DNA of 64,000 nt. It comes from Heterodontus francisci (lineage: Eukaryota). This document shows positions 4,876 through 59,356 of the stretch, in pieces; position 1 is the stretch's first letter, and the number at the start of each line of letters is the position of its first letter. Below the pieces are notes generated by a model. It was given only the letters and a program-made list of their open reading frames with translations, did not search any database and was not told where the DNA came from. A program made the translations under genes and the position numbers. The DNA lies in assembly GCF_036365525.1 (NCBI RefSeq), contig NC_090371.1, forward strand, positions 135,962,737 to 136,026,736. The letters are read 5' to 3'.

Positions 4876-5029
4876 CAGACCACATGAGACATGGATCCTC
4901 TTCATGAACAGCTGAAGCAGGCGTCTACAACCAAGTCTCTCAAGATTGTCAAAATCAGATACTTTTGGAGAGGTCTGTGAATTTTTGGAAGAAAGTTTGG
5001 GGCTTTTAAAATTTGAGAACCTTCAATTA

Positions 5030-5250
5030 TCCTAGTGGCCTGCCCATTGTTTATCCCTCAGTCAACATCACAAAAGACAGATTATGTGGTCATTTATCAA
5101 ATTGCTGTTTGTGGAGTTGGTGTGTTCAGATTGGCTGCCACGTTTCCTACATTGCAACAGTGACTACACTTCAGAAGTACTCCATTGGCTGTAAAGTGCT
5201 TTGAGACATCTAGTGATCATGAAAAACACTATATAAATGCAAGTCTATAT
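5030..5250 (+). mobile_element. DeuSINE (SacSINE1-like) 3' fragment
   Basis: cagtgactacacttcagaagtac..ttggctgtaaagtgctttg..tatataaatgcaagt, the reverse complement of the copy at 11071-11540. Confidence 0.75.
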
Positions 5251-5975: not shown

Positions 5976-8107
5976 GCCATGACGGATTGGGAAACGTTAC
6001 TTAAAGGGATGATGGTGGATAGGCAATGGCAAACATTCAAAGAGCGCATGGATGAACTGCAACAATTGTTTATCCCTGTCTGGCGCAAAAGTAAAACGGG
6101 AAAGATAGCCAAACCATGGCTTACAAGGGAAATTAGAGATAGCATTAGATCCAAGGAAGAGGCATATAAATTTGCCAGGAAAAACAACAGACCTGAGGAT
6201 TGGGAGCAGTTTAGAATTCAGCAAAGGAGGATCAAGGGATTGAATAAGAAGGGGAAAATAGAATATGAGAGCAAGCTTGCGGGGAACATAAAAACTAACT
6301 GTAAAAGTGGTGAAGACAAATGTAGATCCCTAACAGTCAGAAACAGTGGAATTTATTATGGGAAACAAAGAAATGGCTGACCAGCTAAATGCATACTTTG
6401 GTTCTGTCTTCACAAAGGAGGACACAAATATCATACCAGAAATGTTGGGGAACACAGGGCTTAGTGAGAGAGAGGAGCTGAAGGAAATCAGTATTAGTAG
6501 AGAAATGGTGTTGGGGAAATTGATGGGATTGAAGGCTGATAAATCCCCAAGGCCTGATAATCTACATCCCAGAGTACTCAAGGAAGTGGCCCTAGAAATA
6601 ATGGATGCATTGCTGGTCATCTTCCAAGATTCTATAGACTCTGGAACAGTTCCTACAGATTGGAGGGTAGCTATTGTAACCCCACTATTTAAAAAGTGAG
6701 GTAGAGAGAAAGCAGGGAATTATACACCAGTCAGCCTGATGTCGGCAGTAGGAAAAATTCTAGAGTCCATTATCAAAGATTTTATAGCAGAGCACTTAGA
6801 AAACAGTGGTACAATCGGGCAGGGTCAGCATGGATTTACGAAAGGGAAATCATGCTTGACAAATCTACTAGAGTTCTTCCAGGATGTAACTAGTAGAGTT
6901 GATGAGGGGGAGCCAGTGGATGTGGTTTATTTGGACTTTCAGAAGGCTTTTGACAAAGTACCACATAAGAGATTAGCATGTAAAATTAAAGCGCATGAGA
7001 TTGGGGGTAGTGTATTGCAATGGATAGAAAATTGGTTGGCAGACAGGAAACAAAGAGTAGGGATAAATGGGTCTTCTTCCAAATGGCAGGCAGTGACTAG
7101 TCGGGTACCGTGGGGATCGGTGCTAGGACCCCAGCTATTCACAATATACATTAATGATTTAGATGAGGGAATTAAATGTAATATCTGCAAATTTGCAGAT
7201 GACACAAAACTGGGTGGGAGGTGTGAGTTGTGAGGAGGATGCAGAGAGGCTTCAGAGTGATTTTACAAGTTGAGTGAGTGGGCTAATGCATGGCAGATGC
7301 AGTATAATGTGGATAAATGTGAGGTTATCCACTTTGGTAGCAAAGACAGGAAGACAGATTATTATCTGGCGGGCTATAAACTGAGAGAGGGGAATATGCA
7401 ATGAGACCTGGGTGTTCTCGTACATCAGTCGCTGAAGGTAAGCATGCAGGTGCAACAGGCGGTAAAAAAGGCAAATGGTATGTTGGTCTTCATAGCGAGA
7501 GGATTTGAGTACAGGAGCAGGGATGTCTTGCTGCAATTATACAGGGCCTTGGTGAGGCCACACCTGGAATATTGTGTGCAGTTTTGGTCTCCTTATCTGA
7601 GGAAGGATGTTCTTGCTATAGAGGGAGTGCAGCGAAGATTTTCCAGACTGATTCCTGGGATGGCAGGATTGAAGTATGAGGAGAGATTGAGTCGGTTAGG
7701 ATTATATTTGCTGGAGTTCAGAAGAGTGAGGGGGATCTCATAGAAACCTATAAAATTCTAACAGGACTTGATAGGGTCGATGCAGGAAGGATGTTCCCGA
7801 TGGTGGGGGAGTCCAGAACCTGGGGTCATAGTCTAAGGATACGGGGTAAACCATTCAGGACTGAGATGAGAAATTTCTTCACCCTGAGAGTGGTGAACCT
7901 GTGGAATTTGCTACTACAGAAAGCAGTTGAGGCAAAAACATTGTATCTTTTCAAGAAGGAGTTGGATGTAGCTCTTGGATCTAAAGGGATCAAAAGGCGA
8001 AAGCGGGAATCGGCTACTGAGTTGGATGATCAGCCATGATCATAATGAATGGAGGAGCAGGCTCAAAGAGCTCAATGGCTTACTGCTATTTTTTCTATGT
8101 TTCTATG
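5976..8107 (+). mobile_element. 5'-truncated decayed CR1 LINE
   Basis: ORF2 fragments QHGFTKGKSCLTNL, YLDFQKAFDKVPH, KFADD and RPHLEYCVQFWSP with stops and frameshifts. Ends in a (ttctatgt)n tail. Confidence 0.95.
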
Positions 8108-20525: not shown

Positions 20526-20683
20526 AAAGCGGAAAGTGCTGGGGTCACTCAGCAGGTCAGGCAGCATTTGTGGAGAGAGAAGCAGAGTTAACTGTCAGGT
20601 CTGTGAACTTGGACAAGTTAATTCTGCTTCTCTCTCCACAGATACTGCCTGACCTGCTGGATTTCTGCAGCACTTTCTGCTTT
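20526..20683. mobile_element. Penelope-like pLTR fold-back (inverted repeat)
   Basis: About 70-bp arms: aaagcggaaagtgctg..ctcagcaggtcaggcagcatttgtggagagagaagcagagttaac and its reverse complement, around a spacer of about 20 nt. Confidence 0.8.
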
Positions 20684-21169
20684 TCTGCCAGCCCCACTCT
20701 TCAGTCAGGTAAGTATTTCTTTGACAGCTGTCAGGAAGCAGGTGCTGGAGCGCTTAAAGTAGGGCCCCAGCACCTGCTGCACAGCTGTCAAAGGCACTCG
20801 CGCCGAATGTCCCGCCTCACCCCGCGTAATATGGAGAGGGCGGCTTGGCGCCGTTATTCTAATGAGCCCCCGCGATTAATATCACTCGAAGTTATTGGTT
20901 TAAAATTGGCTATAGATCAGCTTTTTTCGCTAAGAAAACAACTTGGTACAGGCTATGACTGAAATTACACACAAACTGTTTTGGGGAATGAGGGAAATAT
21001 TTATTTCATGTTGGATGGAGTAAGTGTATTCCGGCAGTTTTTAACAGGTTAACTGGGAGAATTTTTATATTTTGTGCCAGAAGTTAAGTGTTAGCAATGG
21101 TTTAGATGTTACTGCATTCAGATGCTAATTACAGGTGAAAACAGATGTCTGTTAGCTGGGTTTTGAGAA

Positions 21170-21680: not shown

Positions 21681-21694
21681 TTGTTCAGCAGAAC

Positions 21695-21880
21695 CTGTCA
21701 TCGACCTAAAATGTTAACGCTCTTTCTCTCTCCAGAGATGCTACTAGATCTTCTGAGTATTTCCAGCATTTTCTGTTTTTATTTCAGATTCCCAGCATTT
21801 TTGTTTTTATTTCAAATTTCCAGCATTTTCTGTTTTTCGTTCAGATTCCCAGCACCTGCAGTAATTTACTTTTATTTAAG
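21695..21880 (+). mobile_element. Penelope-like pLTR with degenerate hammerhead and triplicated 3' unit
   Basis: gacctaaaatgttaacgctctttctctctccagagatgct..ctgagtatttccagca followed by three tandem ~29-bp units. Confidence 0.75.
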
Positions 21881-23227
21881 ATGACATCAAGGCAGCATTT
21901 CAGCAAGTATGGCATCAAGGAACCCTAGCGAAACTGGAGTCAGTGGGAATTGGGGGAAAACTGTCTGCTGATTGGAGTCATACCCAGCATAAAGGAAGAT
22001 GGTTGTGGTTGATGGAGGTCAATCACCACCGTCCCAGGACTTCACTGCAGGAGTTCCTCAGGGTAATGTCTTAGACCCAACCATCTTAAGCTGCTTTATC
22101 AATGACCTTCCCTCCATCATAAGGTCAGAATTGGGGATGTTCGCTGATGATTGCACAACGTTCAGCACCATTCGCGACTCCACAGATACTGAAGCAGCCC
22201 ATGTCCATATGCAACAAGACCTGGACAATATCCAGGCTTGGGCTGATAAGTGGTAAGTAACATTCACGCCAAGCAAGGGCCAGGCAATGTTCATCTCAAA
22301 CAAGAGAGAATCAAACCATCTTCCCATGATGTTCAATGGCGTTACAATCGCTGAATCCCCCACTATCAACATCCTGGGGGTCACCATTGACCAGAAACTG
22401 AACTGGACCAGTCATATAAATGCTGTGGCTACAAGAACAGGTCAGGGGCTGAGATTTCTGCAGTGAGTAACTCACCTCCTGTCTTCCCAAAGCCTGTCCA
22501 CCATCTACAAGGCACAAGTCAGGAGTGTGATGGAATATTCTGCACTTGCCTGGATGGGTGCAGCTCCCACAACACTCAGGAAGCTCAACACCATCCAGGA
22601 CAAAGCAGCCCACTTGATTGGCACTCCGTCCACCACCTTCAATCTTCACTCCCTCCACCACCGACGCACAGTGACAGCTGTGTGTACTATATACAATATG
22701 CTGAAAATACTCAGCAGGTCTGGCAGCATCTGTGGAAAGAGAAGCAGAGTTAATGTTTCACTGAAATGTTAACTCTGCTTCTCTCTCCACAGATGCTGCC
22801 AGACCTGCTGAGTGTTTCCAGCATTTCTTGTTTTTATTTCAGATTTTCAGTATTTTGCTTTTATATTATTGTACTATATACAAGATGCACTGCAGCAACT
22901 CACCAACGCTCCTTCACCAGCACCTTCCAAATCCACGATTTCTACCACCTAGAAGGACAAGGGCAGCAGATGCATGGGAACACCACCACCTGCAAGTTCC
23001 CCTCCAAGCCACACCCCTTCCTGACTTGGAACTATATCACTGTTCCTTCACTGTCATTGGGTCAAAATCCTGGAACTCCCTTCCTAACAGCACTGTTGGT
23101 GTACCTAGACCCCAAAGACTGCAGCGGTTCAAGAAGGCAGGTCACCGCCACTTTGTCAAAGGCAGCTCGGGATGGGCAATAAATGCTAGCCTAGTCAGTG
23201 ACGCCCACATCCCATGAACAAATAATA
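21881..23227 (+). mobile_element. Daphne/Crack-like LINE 3' part
   Basis: RT motifs AGVPQGNVLDP..FINDLP..MFADD and QQDLDNIQAWADKW. 3' end gggatgggcaataaatgc..cacatcccatgaacaaataa. Interrupted at 22697-22869. Confidence 0.85.
22697..22869. mobile_element. Penelope-like pLTR hairpin insertion with 14-bp TSD
   Basis: Arms 22698-22760 and 22762-22824 are near-perfect reverse complements. Exact TSD tgtactatatacaa at 22683-22696 and 22870-22883. Confidence 0.9.
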
Positions 23228-28895: not shown

Positions 28896-31860
28896 AAAAA
28901 AGAACAAAGAACAAAGATAATTACAGCACAGGAACAGGCCCTTCGGCCCTCCAAGCCTGCGCCGATCCAGATCCTCTCTCTAAACATGTCGCCTATTTTC
29001 TAAGGTTCTGTATCTCTTTTCTTCCTGCCCATTCATGTATCTGTCTAGATACATCTTAAAAGACTCCATCGTGCCCGCATCTACCACCTCCGCTGGCAAT
29101 GCGTTCCAGGTGCCCACCACCCTCTGCGTAAAGAACTTTCCACGCATAATCCCCCTAAACTTTTCCCCTTTCACTTTGAACTCGTGTCCTCTAGTAATTG
29201 AAACCCCCACTCTGGGAAAAAGCCTCTTGCTATCCACCCTGTCTATACCTCTCATGATTTTGTACACCTCAATCAGGTCCCCCCTCAACCTCCGTCTTTC
29301 TAATGAAAATAATCCTAATCTGCTCAACCTCTCTTCATAGCTAGCGCCCTCCATACCAGGCAACATCCTGGTGAACCTCCTCTGCACCCTCTCCAAAGCA
29401 TCCACATCCTTTTGATAATGTGGCGACCAGAACTGTACGCAGTATTCCAAATGTGGCCGAACCAAAGTCCTATACAACTGTAACATGACCTGCCAACTCT
29501 TGTACTCAATGCCCCGTCCGATGAAGGAAAGCATGCCGTATGCCTTCTTGACCACTCTATTTACCTGCGTTGCCACCTTCAGGGAACAGTGGACATGAAC
29601 ACCCAAATCTCTCTGGACATCAATTTTCCCCAGGACTTTTCCATTTACTGTATAGTTCACTCTTGAATTGGATCTTCCAAAATGCATCACCTCGCATTTG
29701 CCCTGATTGAACTCCATCTGCCATTTCTCTGCCCAACTCTCCAATCTATCTATATTCTGCTGTATTCTCTGACAGTCCCCTTCACTATCTGCTACTCCAC
29801 CAATCTTAGTGTCGTCTGCAAATTTGCTAATCAGTCCACCTATACTTTCCTCCAAATCATTAATGTATATCACAAACAACAGTGGTCCCAGCACGGATCC
29901 CTGTGGAACACCACTGGTCACACGTCTCCATTTTGAGAAACTCCCTTCTACTGCTACTCTCTGTCTCCTGTTGCCCAGCCAGTTCTTTATCCATCTAGCT
30001 AGTACACCTTGGACCCCAAGCGCCTTCACTTTCTCCATCAGCCTGCCATGGGGAACCTTATCAAACGCCTTACTGAAGTCCATGTATATGACATCGACAG
30101 CCCTTCCCTCATCAATCAACTTTGTCACTTCCTCAAAGAATTCTATTAAGTTGGTAAGACATGACCTTCCCTGCACAAAACCATGTTGCCTATCACTGAT
30201 GAGCCCATTTTCTTCCAAATGGGAATAGATCCTATCCCTCAGTATCTTCTCCAGCAGCTTCCCTACCACTGACGTCAGGCTCACCGGTCTATAATTACCT
30301 GGATTATCCCTGCTACCCTTCTTAAACAAGGGGACAACATTAGCAATTCTCCAGTCCTCCGGGACCTCTCCCGTGTTTAAGGATGCTGCAAAGATATCTG
30401 TTAAGGCCCCAGCTATTTCCTCTCTCGCTTCCCTCAGTAACCTGGGATAGATCCCATCCGGACCTGGGGACTTGTCCACCTTAATGCCCTTTAGAATACC
30501 CAACACTTCCTCCCTCCTTATGCCGACTTGACCTAGAGTAATCAAACATCTGTTCCTAACCTCAACATCCGTCATGTCCCTCTCCTCGGTGAATACCGAT
30601 GCAAAGTACTCGTTTAGAATCTCACCCATTTTCTCTGAGTCCAAGCATAACATTCCTCCTTTGTCCTTGAGTGGGCCAATCCTTTCTCTAGTTACCCTCT
30701 TTCTCCTTATATATGAATAAAAGGCTTTGGGATTTTCCTTAACCCTGTTTGCTAACGATATTTCATGACCCCTTTTAGCCCTCTTAATTCCTCGTTTCAG
30801 ATTGGTCCTACATTCCCGATATTCTTTCAAAGCTTCGTCTTTCATCAGCCGCCTAGACCTTATGTATGCTTCCTTTTTCCTCTTAGCTAGTCTCACAATT
30901 TCACCTGTCATCCATGGTTCCCTAATCTTGCCATTTCTATCCCTCATTTTCACAGGAACATGTCTCTCCTGCACGCTAATCAACCTCTCTTTAAAAGCCT
31001 CCCACATATCACATGTGGATTTACCTTCAAACAGCTGCTCCCAATCTACATTTCCCAGCTCCTGCCGAATTTTGGTGTAGTTGGCCTTCCCCCAATTTAG
31101 CACTCTCCCTTTTGGACCACTCTCGTCTTTGTCCATGAGTATTTTAAAGCTTACGGAATTGTGATCACTATTCCCAAAGTAGTCCCCTACTGAAACTTCA
31201 ACAACCTGGCCGGGCTCATTCCCCAACACCAGGTCCAGTATGGCCCCTTCCCGAGTTGGACTATTTACATACTGCTCTAGAAAACCCTCCTGGATGCTCC
31301 TTACAAATTCTGCTCCATCTGGACCTCTAACACTAAGCGAATCCCAGTCAATGTTGGGAAAATTAAAATCTCCTATCACCACCACCCTGTTGCTCCTACA
31401 TCTTTCCATAATCTGTTTACATATTTGTACCTCTATCTCACGCTCGCTGTTGGGAGGCCTGTAGTACAGCCCCAACATTGTTACCGCACCCTTCCTATTT
31501 CTGAGTTCTGTCCATATTGCCTCACTGCTCGAGTCCTCCATAGTGCCCTCCTTCAGCACAGCTGTGATATCCTCTTTGACCAGTAATGCAACTCCTCCAC
31601 CCCTTTTACCTCCCTCTCTATCCCGCCTGAAGCATCGATATCCTGGGATATTTAGTTGCCAATCATGCCCTTCCCTCAACCAAGTCTCAGTAATAGCAAT
31701 AACATCATACTCCCAGGTACTAATCCAAGCCCTAAGTTCATCTGCCTTACCTACTACACTTCTTGCATTAAAACAAATGCACCTCAGACCACCAGTCCCT
31801 TTATATTCATCATCTGCTCCTTGCCTGCTCTTCCCCTTAGTCACACTGACTTCATTATCT
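28896..31860 (-). mobile_element. Young CR1 LINE insertion, 5'-truncated just upstream of the endonuclease
   Basis: (tctttgt)n tail at 28896-28915 and 3' stem-loop gggccgaagggcc. Candidate 6-bp TSD gaccca at 28890-28895 and 31861-31866. Confidence 0.95.
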
Positions 31861-31871
31861 GACCCACTCAC
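28980..31871 (-). CDS. CR1 ORF2: APE endonuclease + reverse transcriptase, uninterrupted reading frame
   Basis: 963 codons with no stop. EN motifs NARS, ITETW, GDFN and SDH. RT motifs QHGF, DFSKAFD, GVPQGSVLGP and FADD. The GTG start listed in the track falls in flanking DNA beyond the TSD. Confidence 0.92.
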   Translation of the reverse strand: MSGSDNEVSVTKGKSRQGADDEYKGTGGLRCICFNARSVVGKADELRAWISTWEYDVIAITETWLREGHDWQLNIPGYRCFRRDREGGKRGGGVALLVKEDITAVLKEGTMEDSSSEAIWTELRNRKGAVTMLGLYYRPPNSEREIEVQICKQIMERCRSNRVVVIGDFNFPNIDWDSLSVRGPDGAEFVRSIQEGFLEQYVNSPTREGAILDLVLGNEPGQVVEVSVGDYFGNSDHNSVSFKILMDKDESGPKGRVLNWGKANYTKIRQELGNVDWEQLFEGKSTCDMWEAFKERLISVQERHVPVKMRDRNGKIREPWMTGEIVRLAKRKKEAYIRSRRLMKDEALKEYRECRTNLKRGIKRAKRGHEISLANRVKENPKAFYSYIRRKRVTRERIGPLKDKGGMLCLDSEKMGEILNEYFASVFTEERDMTDVEVRNRCLITLGQVGIRREEVLGILKGIKVDKSPGPDGIYPRLLREAREEIAGALTDIFAASLNTGEVPEDWRIANVVPLFKKGSRDNPGNYRPVSLTSVVGKLLEKILRDRIYSHLEENGLISDRQHGFVQGRSCLTNLIEFFEEVTKLIDEGRAVDVIYMDFSKAFDKVPHGRLMEKVKALGVQGVLARWIKNWLGNRRQRVAVEGSFSKWRRVTSGVPQGSVLGPLLFVIYINDLEESIGGLISKFADDTKIGGVADSEGDCQRIQQNIDRLESWAEKWQMEFNQGKCEVMHFGRSNSRVNYTVNGKVLGKIDVQRDLGVHVHCSLKVATQVNRVVKKAYGMLSFIGRGIEYKSWQVMLQLYRTLVRPHLEYCVQFWSPHYQKDVDALERVQRRFTRMLPGMEGASYEERLSRLGLFSLERRRLRGDLIEVYKIMRGIDRVDSKRLFPRVGVSITRGHEFKVKGEKFRGIMRGKFFTQRVVGTWNALPAEVVDAGTMESFKMYLDRYMNGQEEKRYRTLENRRHV

Positions 31872-31988
31872 TACTAACTGGTCTCTAAACTTTGACTTAT
31901 TTTAATAATCAGAAATGCTGCTGTGACCCTCAAAGGGTTAAATCAGTGTTTTAATTTGGTTAATGTTTTTTTCAACTCCCCTTCCCAG

Positions 31989-35270: not shown

Positions 35271-35646
35271 TCACAGTGATCAAGAGAACTGAAGAACAAA
35301 GAGAAAACAGCCAGATATATTTCTCTGCCTGGACAAGGAGCTGTCAATTCAACCCCTATCTTCAGAGATGCCCTTTTAAGCTTCTCCACTGGCAGGAGTG
35401 GGTACATTTACATTCAATGTAGCCTTTTGGAAATGGCAGTCAAAAGTTACAATGGTACTTAGCTGCCTCTAGTACAACACAAAGCTGACTCATTAGGAAC
35501 TGTACCAGATATTCAGAACTATGAGATTTTTCCCTAGACCTGAAGAGTTGGAATTATCAGTCAGAACAATTGAGGTTATTGTTTACAATCACCCAAGCTA
35601 AAATAAATCAGACCATCATTTCCATCCAAACATAAGGAATCATAGA

Positions 35647-35825
35647 TAAAAACAGAAAATGCTGGAAATACTCAGCAGGCCAGGCAGCATCAGAATGGTT
35701 CTGTTGAAAGGTTACAGACCTGAAACGTTAACTCCTTTTCTTTCTCCACAGATGCTAAATGACCTGCTGAGTATTTCCAGCGTTTTCTGTTTTTATTTCA
35801 GATTTCCAGCATTATTCTGTTTTTG
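35647..35825 (+). mobile_element. Penelope-like pLTR with short inverted 5' arm and mutated hammerhead
   Basis: Inverted arm 35647-35691, then ggtt-ctgttga-a-aggtt-aca-gacct-gaaa-cg-tt-aact and the pLTR body. Confidence 0.8.
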
Positions 35826-40751: not shown

Positions 40752-41505
40752 ATATAAAAGCAAAATGCTGCAGATGCTGGAAATCTGAAATAAAAACAAG
40801 AAATGCTGGAAATACTCAGCAGGTCTGGCAGAATCTGTGGAGAGAGAAGCAGAGTTAACGTTTCAGGTCAGTGACCCTTCATCAGAACTGGCAAATATGA
40901 GAAATGTAATAGGTTTTAAGCAAGTAAAGCAGGGGCGGGGCAAGAGATAACAAAAGAGAAGGTGTTGATAGGACAAGGTCACAGAGAATAACTGACCAGA
41001 AGGTCATGGAGCAAAGGCAAATGGTATGTTAATGGTGTGTTGAAAGACAAAGCATTAGTACAGAAAGGGTATTAATTGACAGAAAAATGAACAGCCCTGG
41101 CCCCAAGCACAAACATGAAAAAATCAGCAGGCAGGCACAGTAGAAACAAAGTAAAATAAAATGAACAAGGAAAAAGAAAAAATAACTAAAAATAAAAATA
41201 GGGGCCTGTCATACTATGAAATTATTGAACTCAATGTAGCGTGCCTAATCGGTAAATGAGGTGCTGTTACTCGAGCTTGCGTTGATGTTCACTGGAACAC
41301 TGCAGCAATTCCAGGACAGAGTTGTGGGCACAAAAGCAGGGGGAGTGTTGAAATGGCCAGCAACCGGAAGCTCGGGGTCGTGCTGATAACACAAAACTAG
41401 GTGGAATGTGAAATAAAAACAAAAAGTACTGAAAATACTCAGCAGGTCTGGCAGCATCTGTGGAGAGAGAAGCAAAGTTAACATTTCAGGTCAGTGACCT
41501 TTCAT
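40752..41505 (-). mobile_element. Penelope-like element 3' portion: pLTR, GIY-YIG C-terminus, 3' UTR, pLTR
   Basis: Minus strand HDPELPVAGHFNTP and QCSSEHQRKLE*QHLIYRLGTL (41240-41385) match the GIY-YIG C-terminus of Penelope-like elements. Direct pLTR copies at 41408-41505 and 40752-40890. Confidence 0.85.
40853..40889 (-). ncRNA. Minimal type I hammerhead ribozyme (Penelope pLTR)
   Basis: AGUU-CUGAUGA-A-GGGUC-ACU-GACCU-GAAA-CG-UU-AACU. Stem I AGUU/AACU, conserved core, stem II, palindromic ACGU stem III, GUU cleavage triplet. Confidence 0.8.
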
Positions 41506-43199: not shown

Positions 43200-44735
43200 T
43201 TCTCTGGTCCAGATGAGATGTATCCCAAGCTGTTATGTGAGGCAAGGGAGGAGATAGCGGGGGCTCTGACACAAATTTTCACATCCTGTCTGGCCATAGG
43301 AGAGGTGCCAGAGGACTGGAGGATAGTGAATATGGCACCATTATTCAAGAAGGGTAGCAGGGATAAACCAGGTAATTATAGGCCTGTGAGTCTAACATCA
43401 GTGGTAGGGAAATTATTGGAAAAAATTCTGAGGTACAGGATTAATCTCCACTTGGAGAGATGGGGATTAATCATGGATAGCCAGCATGGCTTTGTCGGGG
43501 GAGATCGTGTCTAAAGAAATTTGATTGAATTTTTCGAGGAGGTGACTAGAGGTGTAGATGAGGGTAAAGCAGTTGATGTCATCTACATGGACTTTAGTAA
43601 GGCTTTTGATAAGGTTCCGCATGGGAGATTGGTTAAGAAAGTAAGAGCCCATGGGATCCAGGGTAATTTGGCAAATTGGATTCAAAATTGGCTTAGTGGA
43701 AGGAGGCAGAGGGTGATGGTAGAGGGTTGTTTTTGCGAATGGAGGCCTGTGACCAGTGCAGTACCGCAGGGATCGGTGCTGGGACCCTTGCCGTTTGTAG
43801 TGTGCATTAATGATTTAGATGTGAATATAGGAGGTATGATCAGTAAGTTTGCAGATGACACGAAAATTGGTGGTATCATAAATAGTGAGGATTATAGGAC
43901 GATATATATACGGAGCTGTGGCAAATGGAATTTAATCCTCAGAAGTGTGAGGTGATGCACTTTGGGAGGATTAACTGGGCAGGAGAATATACAATGGATG
44001 GTAGGACCCTAGGGAGTTCAGAGGGACCTTGGTATACGTGTCCATAGATCACTGAAGGCAACAGCACAGGTAGATAAGTTGGTTAGGAAGGCATATGGGA
44101 TACTTGCCTTTATTAGCCGAGGCACAGAATATAAGAGCAGGGAGGTTATGATGGAGCTGTATAAAACGCTGGTTAGGCCGCAGCTGGAGTACTGTGTACA
44201 GTTCTAGGCCCCACACTATAGGAAGGATGTGATTGCACTGGAGAGGGTGCAGAGGCAATTCACCAGGATGTTGCCTGGACTAGAGCATTTCAGCTATGAA
44301 GAGAGACTGGTTAGCTGGGGTTATTTTCCTTGGAGCAGAGAAGGCTGAGGGGGACCTGATAGAGGTATGCAAAATTATGAGGGGCATTGATAGGATAGAT
44401 GGGAAGAAGCTTATTCCCTTAGCAGAGAGGTCAATATCTAGGGGGCATAGGTTTAAGGTAAGGGGCAGGAGGTTTAGAGGAGAGTTGAGGAGAAATGTTT
44501 TTACCCAGAAGGTGGTTGGAATCTGGAGCACACTACCTGAAGGGGTGGTAGGGGCAGGAATACTCAAGACATTTAAGAAGTATTTAGATGAGCACTTGAA
44601 ACGCCATAACATACAAGGCTACGGGCCAAGTGCGGGGAAGTGGGATTAGTTTTGGATGGGTGCTTGATGGTTGCTGCAGGCGCGTTGGGCTGAAGGGCCT
44701 GTATCTGTGCTGTAAAACTCTATCACTCTATGACC
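43200..44735 (+). mobile_element. Decayed CR1 (same subfamily as the intact ORF2 copy)
   Basis: REEIAGALT, PGNYRPVSLTSVVGKLLEK, YMDFSKAFDKVPHGRL and KFADD, with frameshifts. Confidence 0.92.
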
Positions 44736-44760: not shown

Positions 44761-46850
44761 TTCTTCTTTGGCCTCCTTGTCTCAAGAGACAATGGGTAAG
44801 CGCCTAAAGGTGGTCAGTGGTTTGTGAAGCAGCGCCTGGAGTGGCTATAAAGGCCAATTCTAGGTGACAGACTCTTCCACAGGTGCTGCAGATAAAATTG
44901 CTTGTCGGGGCTGTTGCACAGTTGGCTCTCTCCTTGCACTTCTGTCTTTTTTTCCTGCCAGCTGCTAAGTCTCTTCGAGTCGCCACTCTTTAGCCCCGCC
45001 TTTATGGTTGCCCGCCAGCTCTGGCGATCGCTGGCAACTGACTCCCACGACTTGTGGTCAGTGTCACAGGACTTCATGTCACGTTTGCAGACGTCTTTAA
45101 AGCGGAGGCATGGACGGCCGGTGGGTCTGACACCAGTGACCAGCTCGCTGTACAATGCGTCCTTGGGGATCCTGCCATCTTCCATGCAGCTCACATGGCC
45201 AAGCCATCTCAATCACCGCTGACTCAGGATGGTGTATATGCTGGGGATGTTGGCTGCCTCGAGGACTTCTGTGTTGGAGATACGGTCCTGCCACCTGATG
45301 CCAAGGATTCTCCGGAGGCAGCGAAGATGGACTGAGTTGAGACGTCGCTCTTGGCTGACATACGTTGTCCAGGCCTCGCTGCCGTAGAGCAAGGTACTGA
45401 GGACACAGGCTTGAAACACTCGAACTTTTGTGTTCCGCATCAGTACGCCATTTTCCCACGCTCTCTTGGCCAGTCTGGACATAGCAGCGGACGCCTTTCC
45501 CATGCGCTTGTTGATTTCTGCATCGAGAGACAGGTTACTGGTGATAGTTGAGCCTAGGTAGGTGAACTCTTGAACCACTTCCAGAGTGTGGTCGCCGATA
45601 TTGATGGATGGAGCATTTCTGACATCCTGTCCCATGATGTTTGTTTTCTTGAGGCTGATGGTTAGGCCAATTTCATTGCAGGCAGCTGCAATCCTGTCGA
45701 TGAGTCTCTGCTGACACTCTTCAGTGTGAGATGTTAATGCAGCATTGCCAGAAAAGAGCAGCTCCCTGATGAGGACTTTCTGTGCTTTGATCTTTGCTCT
45801 AAGACGGGCAAGGTTGAACAACCTGCCATCTGATCTTGTGTAGAGGAAAATTCCTTCTTCTGAAGACTTGAACGCATGTGAGAGCAGCAGTGAGAAGAAG
45901 ATCCCAAACAGTGTAGGTACGAGAACACAGCCCTGATTCACACCACTCAGGATAGGAAAGGGGTCTGATGAGGCACCGCTATGCTGAATTGTGCCCTTCA
46001 TAGTGTCATGGAATGAAGTGATGATACTTGGTAGCTTTGGTGGACATACGATCTTTGCTAGTAGTCTGAAGAGATGACGTCTGCTGACGAGATCAAAGGC
46101 TTTGGTGAGATCTATGAAAGCAACGTAGAGGGGCATCTGTTGTTCACGGTATTTCTCCTGTAGCTGGCGAAGGGAGAACAGCATGTCAATGGTGGATTTC
46201 CCTGCCCAAAAGCTGTACTGTGCCTCAGGGTAGAAACGCTCAGCCAGCTTCTGGAGTCAGTTTAAAATGACTCAAGCGAAGACTTAACCCACTACGCTGA
46301 GCAAAGAGATTCCATGGCAGTTGTTGCAGTTACCACGGTCACCCTTGTTCTTACAGAGGGTCATAATACTGGCATTGCGCATGTCCTGTGGTACTGCTCC
46401 CTCATCCCAGCACAGGCAAAGCAGTTCATGGAGTGCTGAGAATATAGCAGGCTTGGCACTCTTGATTATTTCAGGGGTAGTGCCATCCTTTCTAGGGGCT
46501 TTTCCACTGGCTACAGAATCAGTGGCATCACTGAGTTCCGATTTTGTTGACTGTTCGTCCAGCTCATCCATGACTGGCAGAGACTGTGCTGCATTGAGGG
46601 CGCTCTCAGTGACAACATTTTCCCTGGAGTACAGTTCTAGGTACCACCCAGCGGTCCATTTGCTTGCATTGGTCATTGATTGTGTTCTCTGATTTAGACT
46701 TGAGGGGGTGATCTTCTTGATGGTTGGCCCAAAAGCTCTCTTAATGCCATCATACATTCCTCTGATGTTTCCGATGTCGGAGGCCAGCTAAATACGACTG
46801 CATAGGTGTTGCCAGTAGTCATTTGCACAGCGCCTGGCTGTTCTTTGTGC
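44761..46850 (-). mobile_element. RTE-clade LINE, 5'-truncated and decayed
   Basis: MLFSLRQLQEKYREQ..VAFIDLTKAFD, GVNQGCVL, FTYLGS, LLYGSEAW and RWLGHV..GRIPK..RPTGRP are RTE-type motifs. GAA tail. Possible degraded TSD atcagatatctt/atcttatatctt. Confidence 0.9.
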
Positions 46851-56380: not shown

Positions 56381-59240
56381 ATAGAAACATAAACATAGAA
56401 AATAGGAGCAGGAGTAGGCCATTCGGCCCTTCGAGCCTGCTCCGCCATTTATTATGATCACAGCTGTAACCTGTTCCCGCTTTCCCCCCCAAATCCTTGG
56501 ATCCTTTTTGCTCCAAGAGCTATATCTAACTCCTTCTTGAAAACATACAATGCCTCAACTGCTTTCTGTGGTAGCGAATTTCACAGGTTCACTACTCTCT
56601 GGGTGAAGAAATTTCTCCTCATCTCAGTCCTGAAACGTTTACCCCATATCCTTTGACTATGACCCCTGGTTCTGGACTCCCCCACCATCAGGAACATCCT
56701 TCCTGCATCTACCCTGTCAAGTCTTGTTAGAATTTTATAGGTTTCTATGTGATCCCCCCTCTGTCTTCTGAACTCCAGCGAGTATAATCCTAACCGACTC
56801 AATCTCTCCTCGTACGTCAATCCCACCATCCCAGGAATCAGTCTGGTAAACCTTCGCTGCACTCCCTCTATAGCAAGAATATCCTTCCTCAGATAAGGGG
56901 ACCAAAACGGCACACAATATTCCAGGTGTGGCCTCACCAAGGCCCTGTATAATTGCAGCAAGACATCCCTGCTCCTGTACTCTAATCCTCTCGCTATGAA
57001 GGCCAACATACCATTTGCCTTTTTTACCGCCTGTTGCACCTGCATGCTTACCTTCAGCGACTGGTGTACGAGAACATCCAGGTCTCGTTGCATATTCCCC
57101 TCTCTCAGTTTATAGCCATTCAGATAATCTGCCTTCCTGTTTTTGCTACCAAAGTGGATAACCTCACATTTGTCCACATTATACTGCATCTGCCATGCAT
57201 TAGCCCACTCACTCAACTTGTCCAAATCACCCTGAAGCCTCTCTGCATCCTCCTCACAACTCACCCTCCCACTCAGTTTTGTGTCACATGCAAATTTGGA
57301 GATATTACATTTAGTTACCTCCTCTAAATCATTAATATATATTGTAAATAGCTGGGGTCCTAGCACTGATCCCTGCGGTACCCCACTAGTCACTGCCTGC
57401 CATTCGGAAAAAGATTCCTACTCTTTGTTTCCTGTCTGCCAACCAATTTTCTATCCATCGCAATACACTACCCCCAATCCCATGCGCTTTAATTTTACAC
57501 GCTACTCTCATATGTGGGACTTTGTCGAAAGCCTTCTGAAAGTCCAAATAAGCCACATCCACTGGCTCCCCCTCATCAACTCTACTAGTTACATCCTCAA
57601 AGAATTCTATTCGATTTGTCAAACATGATTTCCCTTTCATAAATCCATGCTGACTCTGTCCAATTCTACCACTGTTCTCCAAGTGCTCTGCTATAAAATC
57701 TTTGATAATGGACTCTCAAATTTTCCCCCGTACCGACGTCAGGCTGACTGGTCTATAATTCCCTGTTTTCTCCCTACCTCCCTTTTTAAATAGTGGGGTT
57801 ACAATAGCTACCCTCCAATCTGTAGGAACTGTTCCAGAGTCTGTAGAATCTTGGAAGATGACCAGCAATGCATCCATTATTTCTAGGGCCACTTCCTTGA
57901 GTACTCTGGGATGTAGATTATCAGGCCCTGGGGATTTATCAGCCTTCAATCCCATCAATTTCCCCAACACCATTTCTCTACTAATACTGATTTCCTTCAG
58001 CTCCTCTCTCTCACTAAGCCCTGTGTTCCCCAACATTTCTGGTATGATATTTGTGTCCTCCTTTGTGAAGACAGAACAAAAGTATGCATTTAGCTGGTCA
58101 GCCATTTCTTTGTTTCCCATAATTAATTCCCCTGTTTCTGACATTTGTCTTCAATCTTTTTTTCTTCACATACCTATAGAAACTTTAACAGTCAGTTTTT
58201 ATGTTCCCCGCAAGCTTACTCTCGTACTCTGTTTTCCCCTTCTTAATCAATCCCTTGGTCCTCCTTTGCTGAATTCTAAACTGCTCCCAATCCTCAGTTC
58301 TGTTGTTTTTTCTGGCGAGTTTGTATGCCTTTTCCTTGGATCTAATACTATCTCTAATTTCCCTTGTAAGCCATGGTTTGGCTACCTTTCCTGTTTTACT
58401 TTGCGCCAGACAGGAATAAACAATTGTTGCAGTTCATCCATGCGCTCTTTGAATGTTTGCCATTGCCTATCCACCATCATCCATTTAAATAACACTTCCC
58501 AATCTATCATAGCCAACTCGCGCCTCATACCTTCTCCGTTTCCTTTATTTAGATTCAGCACCCTAGTCTCAGAATCAACTACGTCACTCTTCATCTTGAT
58601 GAAGAATTCTATCATATTATGGTCGCTCATCCCCAAGGGGTTTTGCGCAACTAGATTGTCAATTATTCCTCTCTCATTACACAATACCCATTCTAGGATG
58701 GCCTGTTCTCTAGTTGGTTCCTCAATGTATCGGTCCAGAAAACCATCCTGTATACACTCCATGAATTCCTCCTCTACGGTATTGTGACTAATTTGATTTG
58801 CCCAATCTATATGCAGATGAAAGTCACCCATAATTACAGATGTTCCTTTATCACATGCATCTCTAATTTCCTGTTTAATGCCATTCCCAACATCACCACT
58901 ACAGTTTGGGGGTCTATATACAACCCCCACTAATGTTTTTTGCCCCTTAGTGTTTCTCAGCTCTACCCATACAGATTCCACATCGTCAGAGCTAATATCC
59001 TTCCTCACTATTGCTTTAATTTCCACTTTAACCAGCTATGCAACTCCACCGTCTTTTACTTTTTGTCTGTCCTTCCTAAATACTGAATACCCCTGGATGT
59101 TCATTTCTCATCCCTGGTCACCCTGCAGCCATGTCTCTGTAATCCCGCCTATATCATACCCGTTTACATCTATTTGCGCGATTAATTCATCCACTTTATT
59201 GTGAAGGCTCCACACGTTAAGGCATAAAGCCTTAAGACTT

Positions 59241-59356
59241 ATATAATATAAAATAAAAACAAGAACTGCTGGAAATACTCAGCAGGTCTGGCAGCATCTG
59301 TGGAGAGAGAGAAGCAGAGTTAACGTTTCAGGTCAGTGACCCTTCTTCAGAACGGT
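59241..59356 (-). mobile_element. Solo Penelope-like pLTR insertion
   Basis: Flanked by 12/14 duplication aagccttaagactt (59227-59240) / aagccttgaggctt (59357-59370) within the CR1. Confidence 0.85.
59319..59353 (-). ncRNA. Minimal type I hammerhead ribozyme
   Basis: GUU-CUGAAGA-A-GGGUC-ACU-GACCU-GAAA-CG-UU-AAC. Core intact (position 7 is variable). Confidence 0.75.

What the first reader, a model, noticed from the sequence alone, without database searches (positions are those of the whole stretch)
40853..40889. Intact minimal hammerhead ribozyme in a Penelope-like pseudo-LTR
Seen: the minus strand reads AGUU CUGAUGA A GGGUC ACU GACCU GAAA CG UU|AACU, with all conserved core bases, a 4-bp stem I, a 5-bp stem II and a loopless palindromic stem III (ACGU). 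Stem II variants in other copies keep pairing (AGGUU/GACCU at 35709-35721; AGGUC/GACCU near 41490). Known: Penelope-like retroelements carry minimal type I hammerheads whose palindromic stem III works as a dimer. Inferred: cleavage between 40857 and 40856 in antisense transcripts, probably needing a second copy.
Basis: partly seen in the sequence, partly recalled or inferred. Interest (0 to 1): 0.8.

Follow-up and report, generated by a model that had tools for sequence, protein, structure and literature searches.

The report
Hammerhead in shark Penelope retroelement repeat
This is a real but already known type of tiny self-cutting RNA motif at the end of a broken Penelope-type jumping gene; the one fresh point is that many genomic copies begin exactly at the motif's first base, not at its cut site, so they were made from uncut RNA.

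Summary
The motif is present exactly as described (40889-40853, minus strand) and exceeds chance. It lies in the 3' pseudo-LTR of a 5'-truncated, dead Penelope-like element (probably Neptune clade) of a shark-like genome, on the element's SENSE strand, not antisense. It matches the published minimal-hammerhead consensus (Cervera 2014); roughly 50,000 intact motifs are extrapolated genome-wide. Three subfamilies keep the 10.1-11.1 pair (A-U, G.U, G-C); the youngest carries U4C in the core. Cleavage was not shown; the active dimer is not the predicted stable fold.

New here: 5' ends of copies form a wall at the first base of stem I (21 of 98, and 11 of 39 in an independent set) and almost never at the cut site (1 of 98, 0 of 39). 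These ~135-nt solo repeats often have target-site duplications. So the template RNA most likely starts at the hammerhead's first base (initiator-like CCAGTTC) and is copied uncleaved, matching in vitro results on a lizard element. Verdict: new member of a known kind, with a modest mechanistic lead.

The parts
40853..40889 (-). Minimal type I hammerhead motif (subfamily A type: CUGAUGA, G.U closing pair, ACGU helix III, GUU triplet); predicted cut 40857/40856
   Evidence: matches consensus in supplementary Fig. S3 of PMC4209133
40750..41384 (-). 5'-truncated Penelope-like element copy, 88% identical to the 3' end of the full-length relative L032
41208..41384 (-). Broken C-terminal remnant of the GIY-YIG endonuclease frame, ending at the element's stop codon
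   Evidence: blastn/tblastx against L032 ORF, 83% nt identity; Pfam GIY-YIG on the L032 piece E=0.018, below cut-off
40754..41207 (-). 3' UTR / pseudo-LTR; the last ~135 nt (40889-40754) is the unit found genome-wide as solo repeats
40885..40891 (-). Initiator-like YYANWYY heptamer whose A (40889) is the first base of stem I and the position where copy 5' ends pile up; inferred RNA 5' end
   Evidence: pattern kept in 108 of 124 long copies; pile-up; Inr consensus recalled, function not tested
40754..40788 (-). Optional ~30-35 nt 3' 'tail' (second reverse-transcription start), present in this copy
   Evidence: 3' ends bimodal: 26 copies at profile positions 421-431, 60 at 455-456, of 96; tail described in PMC11167929
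41403..41505 (-). Short upstream copy on the same strand, 616 nt away, lacking stem I 5' strand and CUG; could only be a substrate strand
59246..59353 (-). Solo pseudo-LTR copy with intact core, starting at the second base of stem I, with a ~9-nt target-site duplication
35637..35812 (.). Inverted pair; direct arm 35698-35812 (+) starts at stem I, core broken (A6U)

Best explanation
The motif is the standard minimal hammerhead of a Penelope-like retrotransposon (probably Neptune clade), carried in both pseudo-LTRs on the sense strand. In the active master elements it was kept under selection (shown indirectly) as a weak, dimer- and probably protein-dependent self-cleaving motif (from published work, inferred here). 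The element's RNA most likely begins at the first base of stem I (inferred from a wall of 5' ends; initiator-like context). Reverse transcription starts internally about 100 or 135 nt downstream, at an AT-rich nicked target, and usually copies RNA that has NOT been cut by the ribozyme, leaving ~135-nt solo repeats, inverted pairs and longer 5'-truncated copies (shown at DNA level). The copy at 40853-40889 is a passenger in one dead truncated insertion; it has no intact same-strand partner nearer than 18.5 kb and most likely does nothing for the host.
For: Fixed 3' end and variable 5' end in 30 of 30 best genomic matches. Longer copies encode DKG, YIDD, linker CX4CxxC and CxxC..YIG motifs in the motif's strand; 57 homologous proteins, best 62% identical, annotated with RT, PF26215 and in part GIY-YIG domains. 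L032 has direct 5' and 3' pLTRs each with an identical hammerhead; L033 and L034 have inverted 5' copies. Motif fits the published consensus incl. the base between 9 and 10.1. Core positions vary less than flanks across 123 copies (42 observed vs 72.7 expected; N7+loop 66 vs 30.8). 10.1-11.1 pair is A-U in 34/43, G.U in 59/69, G-C in 10/11 copies of three subfamilies defined by flanks only. 5' ends: 21 of 98 at -4..+3 from the stem I start vs 4 at +29..+36 (1 exactly at the cut site) (21 of 50 local ends, p=4e-7); independent set chosen only by sequence downstream of the cut site: 11 of 39 at -2..+3, 13 at +4..+29, 15 long, none at the cut site; longer arm of 10 of 16 inverted pairs ends at -2..+2. 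TSDs >=8 nt in 11 of 30 such copies vs 3.6% of 854 control pairings. PMC11167929 reports internal RT initiation, protein-assisted hammerhead cleavage and unprocessed RNA as dominant substrate in vitro for a lizard Poseidon.
Against: No cleavage or RNA-end data: only assembled contigs were available. Stems are not less variable than flanks (128 vs 134.4); covariation test not significant. The youngest, abundant subfamily has U4C in the core (9/11; 20/21). The monomer's best fold is not the hammerhead (-7.3 vs -5.9 kcal/mol) and the hammerhead dimer (-8.5) is far above the best dimer fold (-23.6). Pfam did not recognise the RT piece itself. Copies are not phylogenetically independent, so the core-conservation p-values are optimistic. 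Most 5' pLTRs of near-full-length copies extend upstream past the wall, so RNAs that do not start there also serve as templates.
Confidence: 0.8

Rival explanations
1. Retrovirus-like strong-stop and strand transfer: the RNA starts at stem I of the 5' pLTR, the hammerhead of the 3' pLTR cuts to set the RNA 3' end, leaving a 33-nt terminal redundancy (the hammerhead itself). RT primes ~135 nt from the 5' end, copies to the first base, then either aborts (solo repeat) or jumps to the 3' redundancy and copies the whole element.
For: Hard wall at the stem I start and ~135-nt solo copies; two independent cases where a copy ending at that base is joined to the element body at L032 positions 5660 and 5674, i.e. 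a jump after reaching the wall; near-full-length copies whose 5' pLTR starts at that base (3 independent loci among 30 examined); PAc needs sequence downstream of the pLTR for binding and primes internally.
Against: No RNA 3' ends seen; requires asymmetric cleavage (3' copy cut, 5' copy spared) although the dimer is symmetric; read-through of tandem copies explains long insertions without it (PMC2377424 discussion); hammerhead mutants did not affect insertion in vitro for PAc. The two jump cases come from loci selected for the body sequence.
Confidence: 0.12
2. Published rolling-circle model: both hammerheads cut, the unit-length RNA is ligated to a circle, and RT runs round it to give long and tandem copies.
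For: Proposed in PMC4209133; about 30-40% of copies run far upstream through the motif and most 5' pLTRs extend past the wall, which circles would allow.
Against: A circle has no end at the stem I start, and linear cleaved RNA would leave 5' ends at the cut site; the wall and the lack of cut-site ends show that at least the short class and some full-length copies came from uncleaved linear RNA. It can only apply to part of the long class.
Confidence: 0.2
3. The wall marks a 3' splice site (branch-like CTAAY, pyrimidines, YAG just before the core), as in D. virilis Penelope, where an intron ends at helix I; short copies come from spliced or splice-arrested RNA.
For: YTAAY motif 6-14 nt upstream in 97 of 124 long copies and an upstream G|GTCAGT donor-like site giving a 109-nt candidate intron; D. 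virilis precedent.
Against: No spliced junction in any held locus (0 hits); sequence upstream of wall copies is the duplicated target site, not an exon, and differs between copies; a lariat block would stop RT about 8-9 nt further upstream. An intron may still exist in transcripts, since PLEs are known to retain introns.
Confidence: 0.1
4. The motif is no longer (or never was) catalytic in this family; its conservation reflects overlap with promoter or protein-binding signals at the RNA 5' end.
For: U4C fixed in the youngest subfamily, which is 7 of 15 long copies in the arbitrary sample; misfolding energies; low or no activity for most PLE/retrozyme motifs tested in print; no cut-site ends.
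Against: The 10.1-11.1 pair is kept through two successive changes ending at the canonical G-C; free positions N7 and loop II are the ones that vary; U4C is a known natural variant that stays functional in vivo (PMC3088659 passage).
Confidence: 0.2
5. This particular copy has been co-opted by the host as a functional ribozyme, e.g. cutting the core-less copy 616 nt upstream in a shared transcript.
For: The motif is fully intact whereas only 24 of 69 subfamily A copies are; the upstream copy retains a pairable helix III and stem I 3' strand.
Against: About one copy in three is intact by chance; the copy is ~8-12% diverged from relatives like any other and sits among LINE fragments; no host exon was identified or expression shown.
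Confidence: 0.03

Closest known systems
Minimal hammerheads (min-HHR) in pLTRs of metazoan Penelope-like elements (Cervera & De la Pena 2014, PMC4209133; Xena, Poseidon, Neptune of fishes, coelacanth, Xenopus)
   Same: Type I topology, CUGANGAH + G..Y stem II + GAAA + palindromic 15.2-16.2 + UH, short stem I, U-rich 5' flank, location in both pLTRs, thousands of dispersed truncated copies; G10.1-U11.1 and H17=U also occur in the published fish/frog/coelacanth examples.
   Different: No cartilaginous fish in the parts of Table S1/Fig. S3 that I read; here three subfamilies with A-U, G.U, G-C closing pairs and a U4C core variant; a wall of 5' ends at the first base of stem I is not described in the text I read.
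PAc (Poseidon of Anolis carolinensis; Frangieh et al. 2024, PMC11167929)
   Same: Two internal RT start sites giving an optional 30-40 nt tail; AT-rich targets; insertion from unprocessed RNA; no reads ending at the cut site.
   Different: PAc is Poseidon clade with the ORF starting inside the hammerhead; this element has a linker zinc finger (Neptune/Nematis type) and the pLTR ends about 100 nt after the cut site. Their Fig. S2 could not be seen.
D. virilis Penelope (Schostak et al. 2008, PMC2377424)
   Same: Transcription start inside the pLTR at an Inr-type internal promoter; 3' splice site abutting helix I; 34-bp tail.
   Different: There the start lies about 120 nt upstream of the hammerhead, with an intron between; here the inferred RNA start coincides with stem I and no spliced copy was found.
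Animal non-LTR retrozymes (10.64898/2026.07.22.740005; PMC7229834 listing only)
   Same: Non-coding hammerhead-bearing repeats related to PLE pLTRs, reported also for one chondrichthyan.
   Different: Retrozymes are head-to-tail tandem arrays; the copies here are dispersed solo or inverted pLTRs with TSDs or truncated elements.

Membership tests
Minimal type I hammerhead (PLE min-HHR) | Core C3 U4 G5 A6 N7 G8 A9 ... G12 A13 A14 A15.1 ... U16.1 H17 | tested here: met
Minimal type I hammerhead (PLE min-HHR) | Stem I 3-5 bp, stem II >=4 bp, one unpaired base between 9 and 10.1 | tested here: met
   4 bp, 5 bp, A at 40878
Minimal type I hammerhead (PLE min-HHR) | Palindromic 15.1-16.1 segment without loop III | tested here: met
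   ACGU in this copy; CG kept in 39/69, 10/11, 12/43 copies of the three subfamilies, otherwise mostly CpG decay
Minimal type I hammerhead (PLE min-HHR) | G10.1-C11.1 closing pair (consensus >80%) | tested here: inconclusive
   G.U in this copy and its subfamily; G-C in subfamily B; G.U also in published examples
Minimal type I hammerhead (PLE min-HHR) | Compensatory changes in stems | tested here: inconclusive
   one pair A-U/G.U/G-C between subfamilies; 146/500 shuffles as high; none in stem I
Minimal type I hammerhead (PLE min-HHR) | Site-specific self-cleavage as dimer | not testable with these tools
   folding disfavors the active dimer; contigs cannot show RNA ends
Penelope-like element (EN+) | Single ORF with PLE-type RT (GxxF, DKG, YIDD) followed by GIY-YIG endonuclease | tested here: met
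   motifs in L031-L034, frames broken; homologues with RT + PF26215 +/- PF01541; Pfam on the pieces themselves weak or nil
Penelope-like element (EN+) | Pseudo-LTRs from partial tandems, inverted 5' copies, optional 30-40 nt tail, short TSDs | tested here: met
Neptune clade | CX2-5CxxC zinc finger in the RT-EN linker plus CCHH in the EN | tested here: met
   CX4CxxC in L033 and L034, CxxC before YIG with downstream His residues; definition; shared with Nematis
Neptune clade | RT phylogeny grouping with Neptune references rather than Nematis | not tested
   no clade-labelled reference sequences were available
Non-LTR retrozyme | Head-to-tail tandem units each with a complete hammerhead | tested here: not met
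   copies near the finding are dispersed, truncated or inverted

The most novel reading that the evidence does not exclude
The hammerhead is the terminal redundancy of the element's RNA: transcription starts at its first base, the 3' copy's cleavage sets the RNA 3' end 33 nt into the same sequence, and the ~135-nt solo repeats that litter this genome are aborted 'strong-stop' cDNAs of a retrovirus-like strand-transfer cycle. This would give PLE hammerheads a concrete role and explain how pseudo-LTRs are regenerated. (The milder part alone - RNA 5' end at the first base of stem I, copied uncleaved - I put at about 0.6.)
Probability: 0.12. Interest if true: 0.75.

Novelty: new member of a known kind. 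Interest (0 to 1): 0.33.

Why it matters
The motif itself adds one more host group to a class known since 2014. What PLE hammerheads do in vivo is still open: cleavage is weak in vitro and was dispensable for insertion in the one reconstituted system. A genome with hundreds of thousands of copies is a fossil record of template ends. Here it says that templates were mostly uncleaved and began at the ribozyme's first base, which supports the in vitro result with in vivo products and gives exact positions for CAGE, cyclic-phosphate sequencing and reconstitution tests. A successful subfamily with U4C is a natural test of how much catalysis the element needs.

Tried and rejected
Rfam scan of the window: no hammerhead family at E<=1, only miRNA-like hits on inverted PLE pairs. 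Bare core pattern is barely above chance. Single-strand folding gives no support (z -0.79, -0.15, +0.39). Genome searches with two consensus-like 95-102 nt queries returned nothing because common words are skipped, so the wall was replicated in subfamilies A and B only, not C. NCBIfam: no hit; Pfam: none for four of five ORF pieces. Sequencing runs: 24 listed, all assembled contigs; four laid on a 601-nt stretch show the repeat in runs of four organisms and a fall in summed depth upstream of the stem I start, but contigs cannot show RNA ends, strand or level, and the stretch lacked the candidate splice donor, so this counts as no evidence. Splice-acceptor origin of the wall rejected. RT stalling on the hammerhead's own structure rejected by logic: RT moves 3' to 5' and has already passed the whole motif at the wall. 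'Antisense' rejected. No host gene was identified; about 59% of the window matches repeats in my sample and the remaining stretches were not annotated. Lunse et al. (dimer cleavage of PLE hammerheads) was seen only as a title in a reference list. Literature searches for shark PLE hammerheads or for a 5'-end wall/strand transfer in PLEs found no paper describing them; the library is incomplete, figures are not held, the PAc supplements gave no text hits and the preprint's supplements were not seen.

Full report
1. Observation. The core pattern alone is hardly above chance (15 vs 6.6 +- 2.9). A descriptor requiring core, stems and a pairing 15.2-16.2 dinucleotide gave 7 hits in 61 sequences (window plus 60 arbitrarily placed 10-kb stretches; 654 kb without N), all of one family, against 0-1 in each of 10 shuffles. 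Five of the 7 lie outside the window, which extrapolates roughly to 50,000 intact motifs in the 6.0-Gb genome; 27 profile hits spanning the whole motif extrapolate to about 250,000. Rfam has no match. The two neighbours cited for covariation have the stated stems but broken cores.

2. What it is part of. The 30 best genomic matches share a fixed end at window ~40754 and vary at the other end: a 5'-truncated retroelement on the minus strand. Four long copies were extended. L032 is a full element with a direct 5' pLTR (5019-5216) and a 3' pLTR, each with the same hammerhead; L033 and L034 have inverted 5' copies. Their broken frames carry GLSF, DKG, YIDD, a CX4CxxC linker finger and CxxC..YIG. 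The RT piece found 57 longer proteins among 1259 candidates, the best a shark protein at 62% identity, with RT, PF26215 and in part GIY-YIG domains; Pfam on the pieces themselves gave only GIY-YIG at E=0.018. By the definitions in Craig et al. (passages) this is a C-terminal EN+ PLE of Neptune/Nematis type; Neptune is likelier in a vertebrate (passage) but no tree was built. The window copy spans 41384-40750, keeps only the end of the endonuclease and is 88% identical to L032. The hammerhead is therefore on the sense strand. 3' ends are bimodal (26 copies at profile positions 421-431, 60 at 455-456, of 96), the PLE 'tail'.

3. Is the motif under selection? From 126 copies reaching well past both sides I dropped 3 (two low-scoring, one inverted-junction artefact) and clustered 123 on flanking columns only. 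Subfamily C (43 copies, oldest) closes stem II with A-U (34), A (69, includes this copy) with G.U (59), B (11, youngest; 4.4% vs 9.0% pairwise in arbitrary loci) with G-C (10). Other fixed changes fall at N7 and loop II, with one exception: U4C in B (9 of 11; 20 of 21), a variant that lowers activity in vitro but stays functional in a viroid (PMC3088659 passage). Core columns vary less than flanks (42 vs 72.7 expected after base correction; column-wise p=0.011), free positions more (66 vs 30.8), stems the same (128 vs 134.4). A formal covariation count on 9 hand-picked sequences was not significant (146/500). Only 24 of 69 A copies are intact, mainly through CpG decay of helix III. Reading: constraint in the master lineages, neutral decay in copies; the loci sets for A and C were chosen by similarity, and copies are not independent.

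4. Can it cleave? Not testable here. The monomer prefers a non-hammerhead fold (-7.3 vs -5.9 kcal/mol) and the hammerhead dimer (-8.5) is far from the best dimer (-23.6). Published PLE min-HHRs are inactive as monomers and weak as dimers (PMC4209133, parts 1-2 of 4 and supplement parts 1-2 of 3 read); the lizard PAc motif cleaves only with protein (PMC11167929, parts 1-2 of 4); 1 of 9 Xenopus retrozyme dimers cleaved (preprint parts 2-3 of 5). Cutting at 40857/40856 needs a partner with an intact core; the nearest on the same strand is at 59350.

5. The wall of 5' ends. Counting from the A at 40889 (0; cut site +33), I mapped 5' ends in arbitrary stretches, in loci chosen only by the 103 nt downstream of the cut site, and in bystander copies, leaving out the primary hits (chosen for length), 7 duplicated loci, rows scoring under 90 and rows at locus edges. 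Of 98 copies, 21 end at -4..+3, 19 at +4..+28, 4 at +29..+36 (1 at +33), 4 beyond, 4 at -15..-5, 17 at -280..-16 and 29 run further; 21 of 50 local ends in one 8-nt window, p=4e-7, versus p=0.91 for the cut-site window. An independent set of 39 subfamily B loci, chosen the same way, gave 11 at -2..+3, 13 at +4..+29, 15 long, none at +33 and none between -32 and -3; in 16 inverted pairs the longer arm ends at -2..+2 in 10. Of 30 copies ending at -6..+3, 11 have a >=8-nt TSD (control 3.6% of 854; the 30 include inverted and 5'-pLTR cases where a simple TSD is not expected), with 1-4 nt microhomology or a few extra bases and no foreign exon. Shown: many insertions are complete ~135-nt copies that contain the 33 nt upstream of the cut site and stop at stem I. 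Inferred: the template RNA began there and was uncleaved. The context YYAGTTC fits the initiator consensus (recalled) in 108 of 124 long copies; D. virilis Penelope also starts at an Inr inside the pLTR (PMC2377424 passages and discussion), and an Inr-like site is noted in a rotifer pLTR (PMC3846280 passages). Against a single start: most 5' pLTRs of near-full-length copies extend past the wall.

6. Mechanism. Most likely (0.8): a known-type PLE hammerhead, weak and partner-dependent, at the very 5' end of the element's RNA and again near its 3' end; RT primes internally and copies mostly uncleaved RNA; this copy is a dead passenger. Rivals: rolling circle for part of the long copies (0.2), a no-longer-catalytic motif (0.2), strong-stop/strand transfer with the hammerhead as terminal redundancy (0.12), splice-site origin of the wall (0.1), host co-option (0.03). 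These are not all exclusive.

7. Novelty. Class, structure and dimer model are in print since 2014, and six earlier notes of this scan on other shark/ray windows say the same (unchecked, not counted as support). Searches found no paper on shark PLE hammerheads or on a 5'-end wall at stem I, but the library is partial, figures and some supplements were not visible, and Lunse et al. was not held. Verdict: new member of a known kind; interest 0.33, nearly all of it from the 5'-end pattern and the U4C subfamily.

Noticed in passing
L090:7794-8202, L074, L078, L084, L194-L232: Youngest subfamily (pairwise 4.4% vs 9.0% for subfamily A over 105 nt, arbitrary loci only, 7 and 5 copies) has U4C in the catalytic core together with a canonical G10.1-C11.1 pair; C4 in 20 of 21 further copies.
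   Followed up: partly
window 40890-40905 (-) and relatives: Branch-point-like YTAAY plus pyrimidines plus YAG directly before the core (97 of 124 long copies; mutated in this copy) and a donor-like site 109 nt upstream; same position as the D. virilis Penelope intron end. No spliced copy found in held loci.
   Followed up: partly
L053 and L055/L059/L060: A solo repeat starting at the stem I A is joined directly to the element body (L032 positions 5674 and 5660), in one case with one extra G: looks like template jumping after RT reached the RNA 5' end.
   Followed up: partly
window 20526-20690, 21687-21872, 22687-22867, 35637-35812: Inverted or rearranged pairs of the same pseudo-LTR; these cause the miRNA-like Rfam hits.
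   Followed up: partly
window 28980-31901 (-): Uninterrupted 973-codon frame with AP endonuclease and RT domains (LINE ORF2); many broken LINE pieces elsewhere (e.g. 6700-7233, 43515-43955, 45213-46256, 56581-59035).
   Followed up: no
L048-L050, L056-L058 (one contig): Six near-identical loci with the same element on one contig, and three more (L055, L059, L060): segmental or tandem duplications; counted once.
   Followed up: no
L103:8675-8878: Very diverged inverted pair weakly matching the pseudo-LTR profile (31 bits); possibly an older PLE family.
   Followed up: no
L034:954-2613: Tandem array with an 84-bp period upstream of the element.
   Followed up: no
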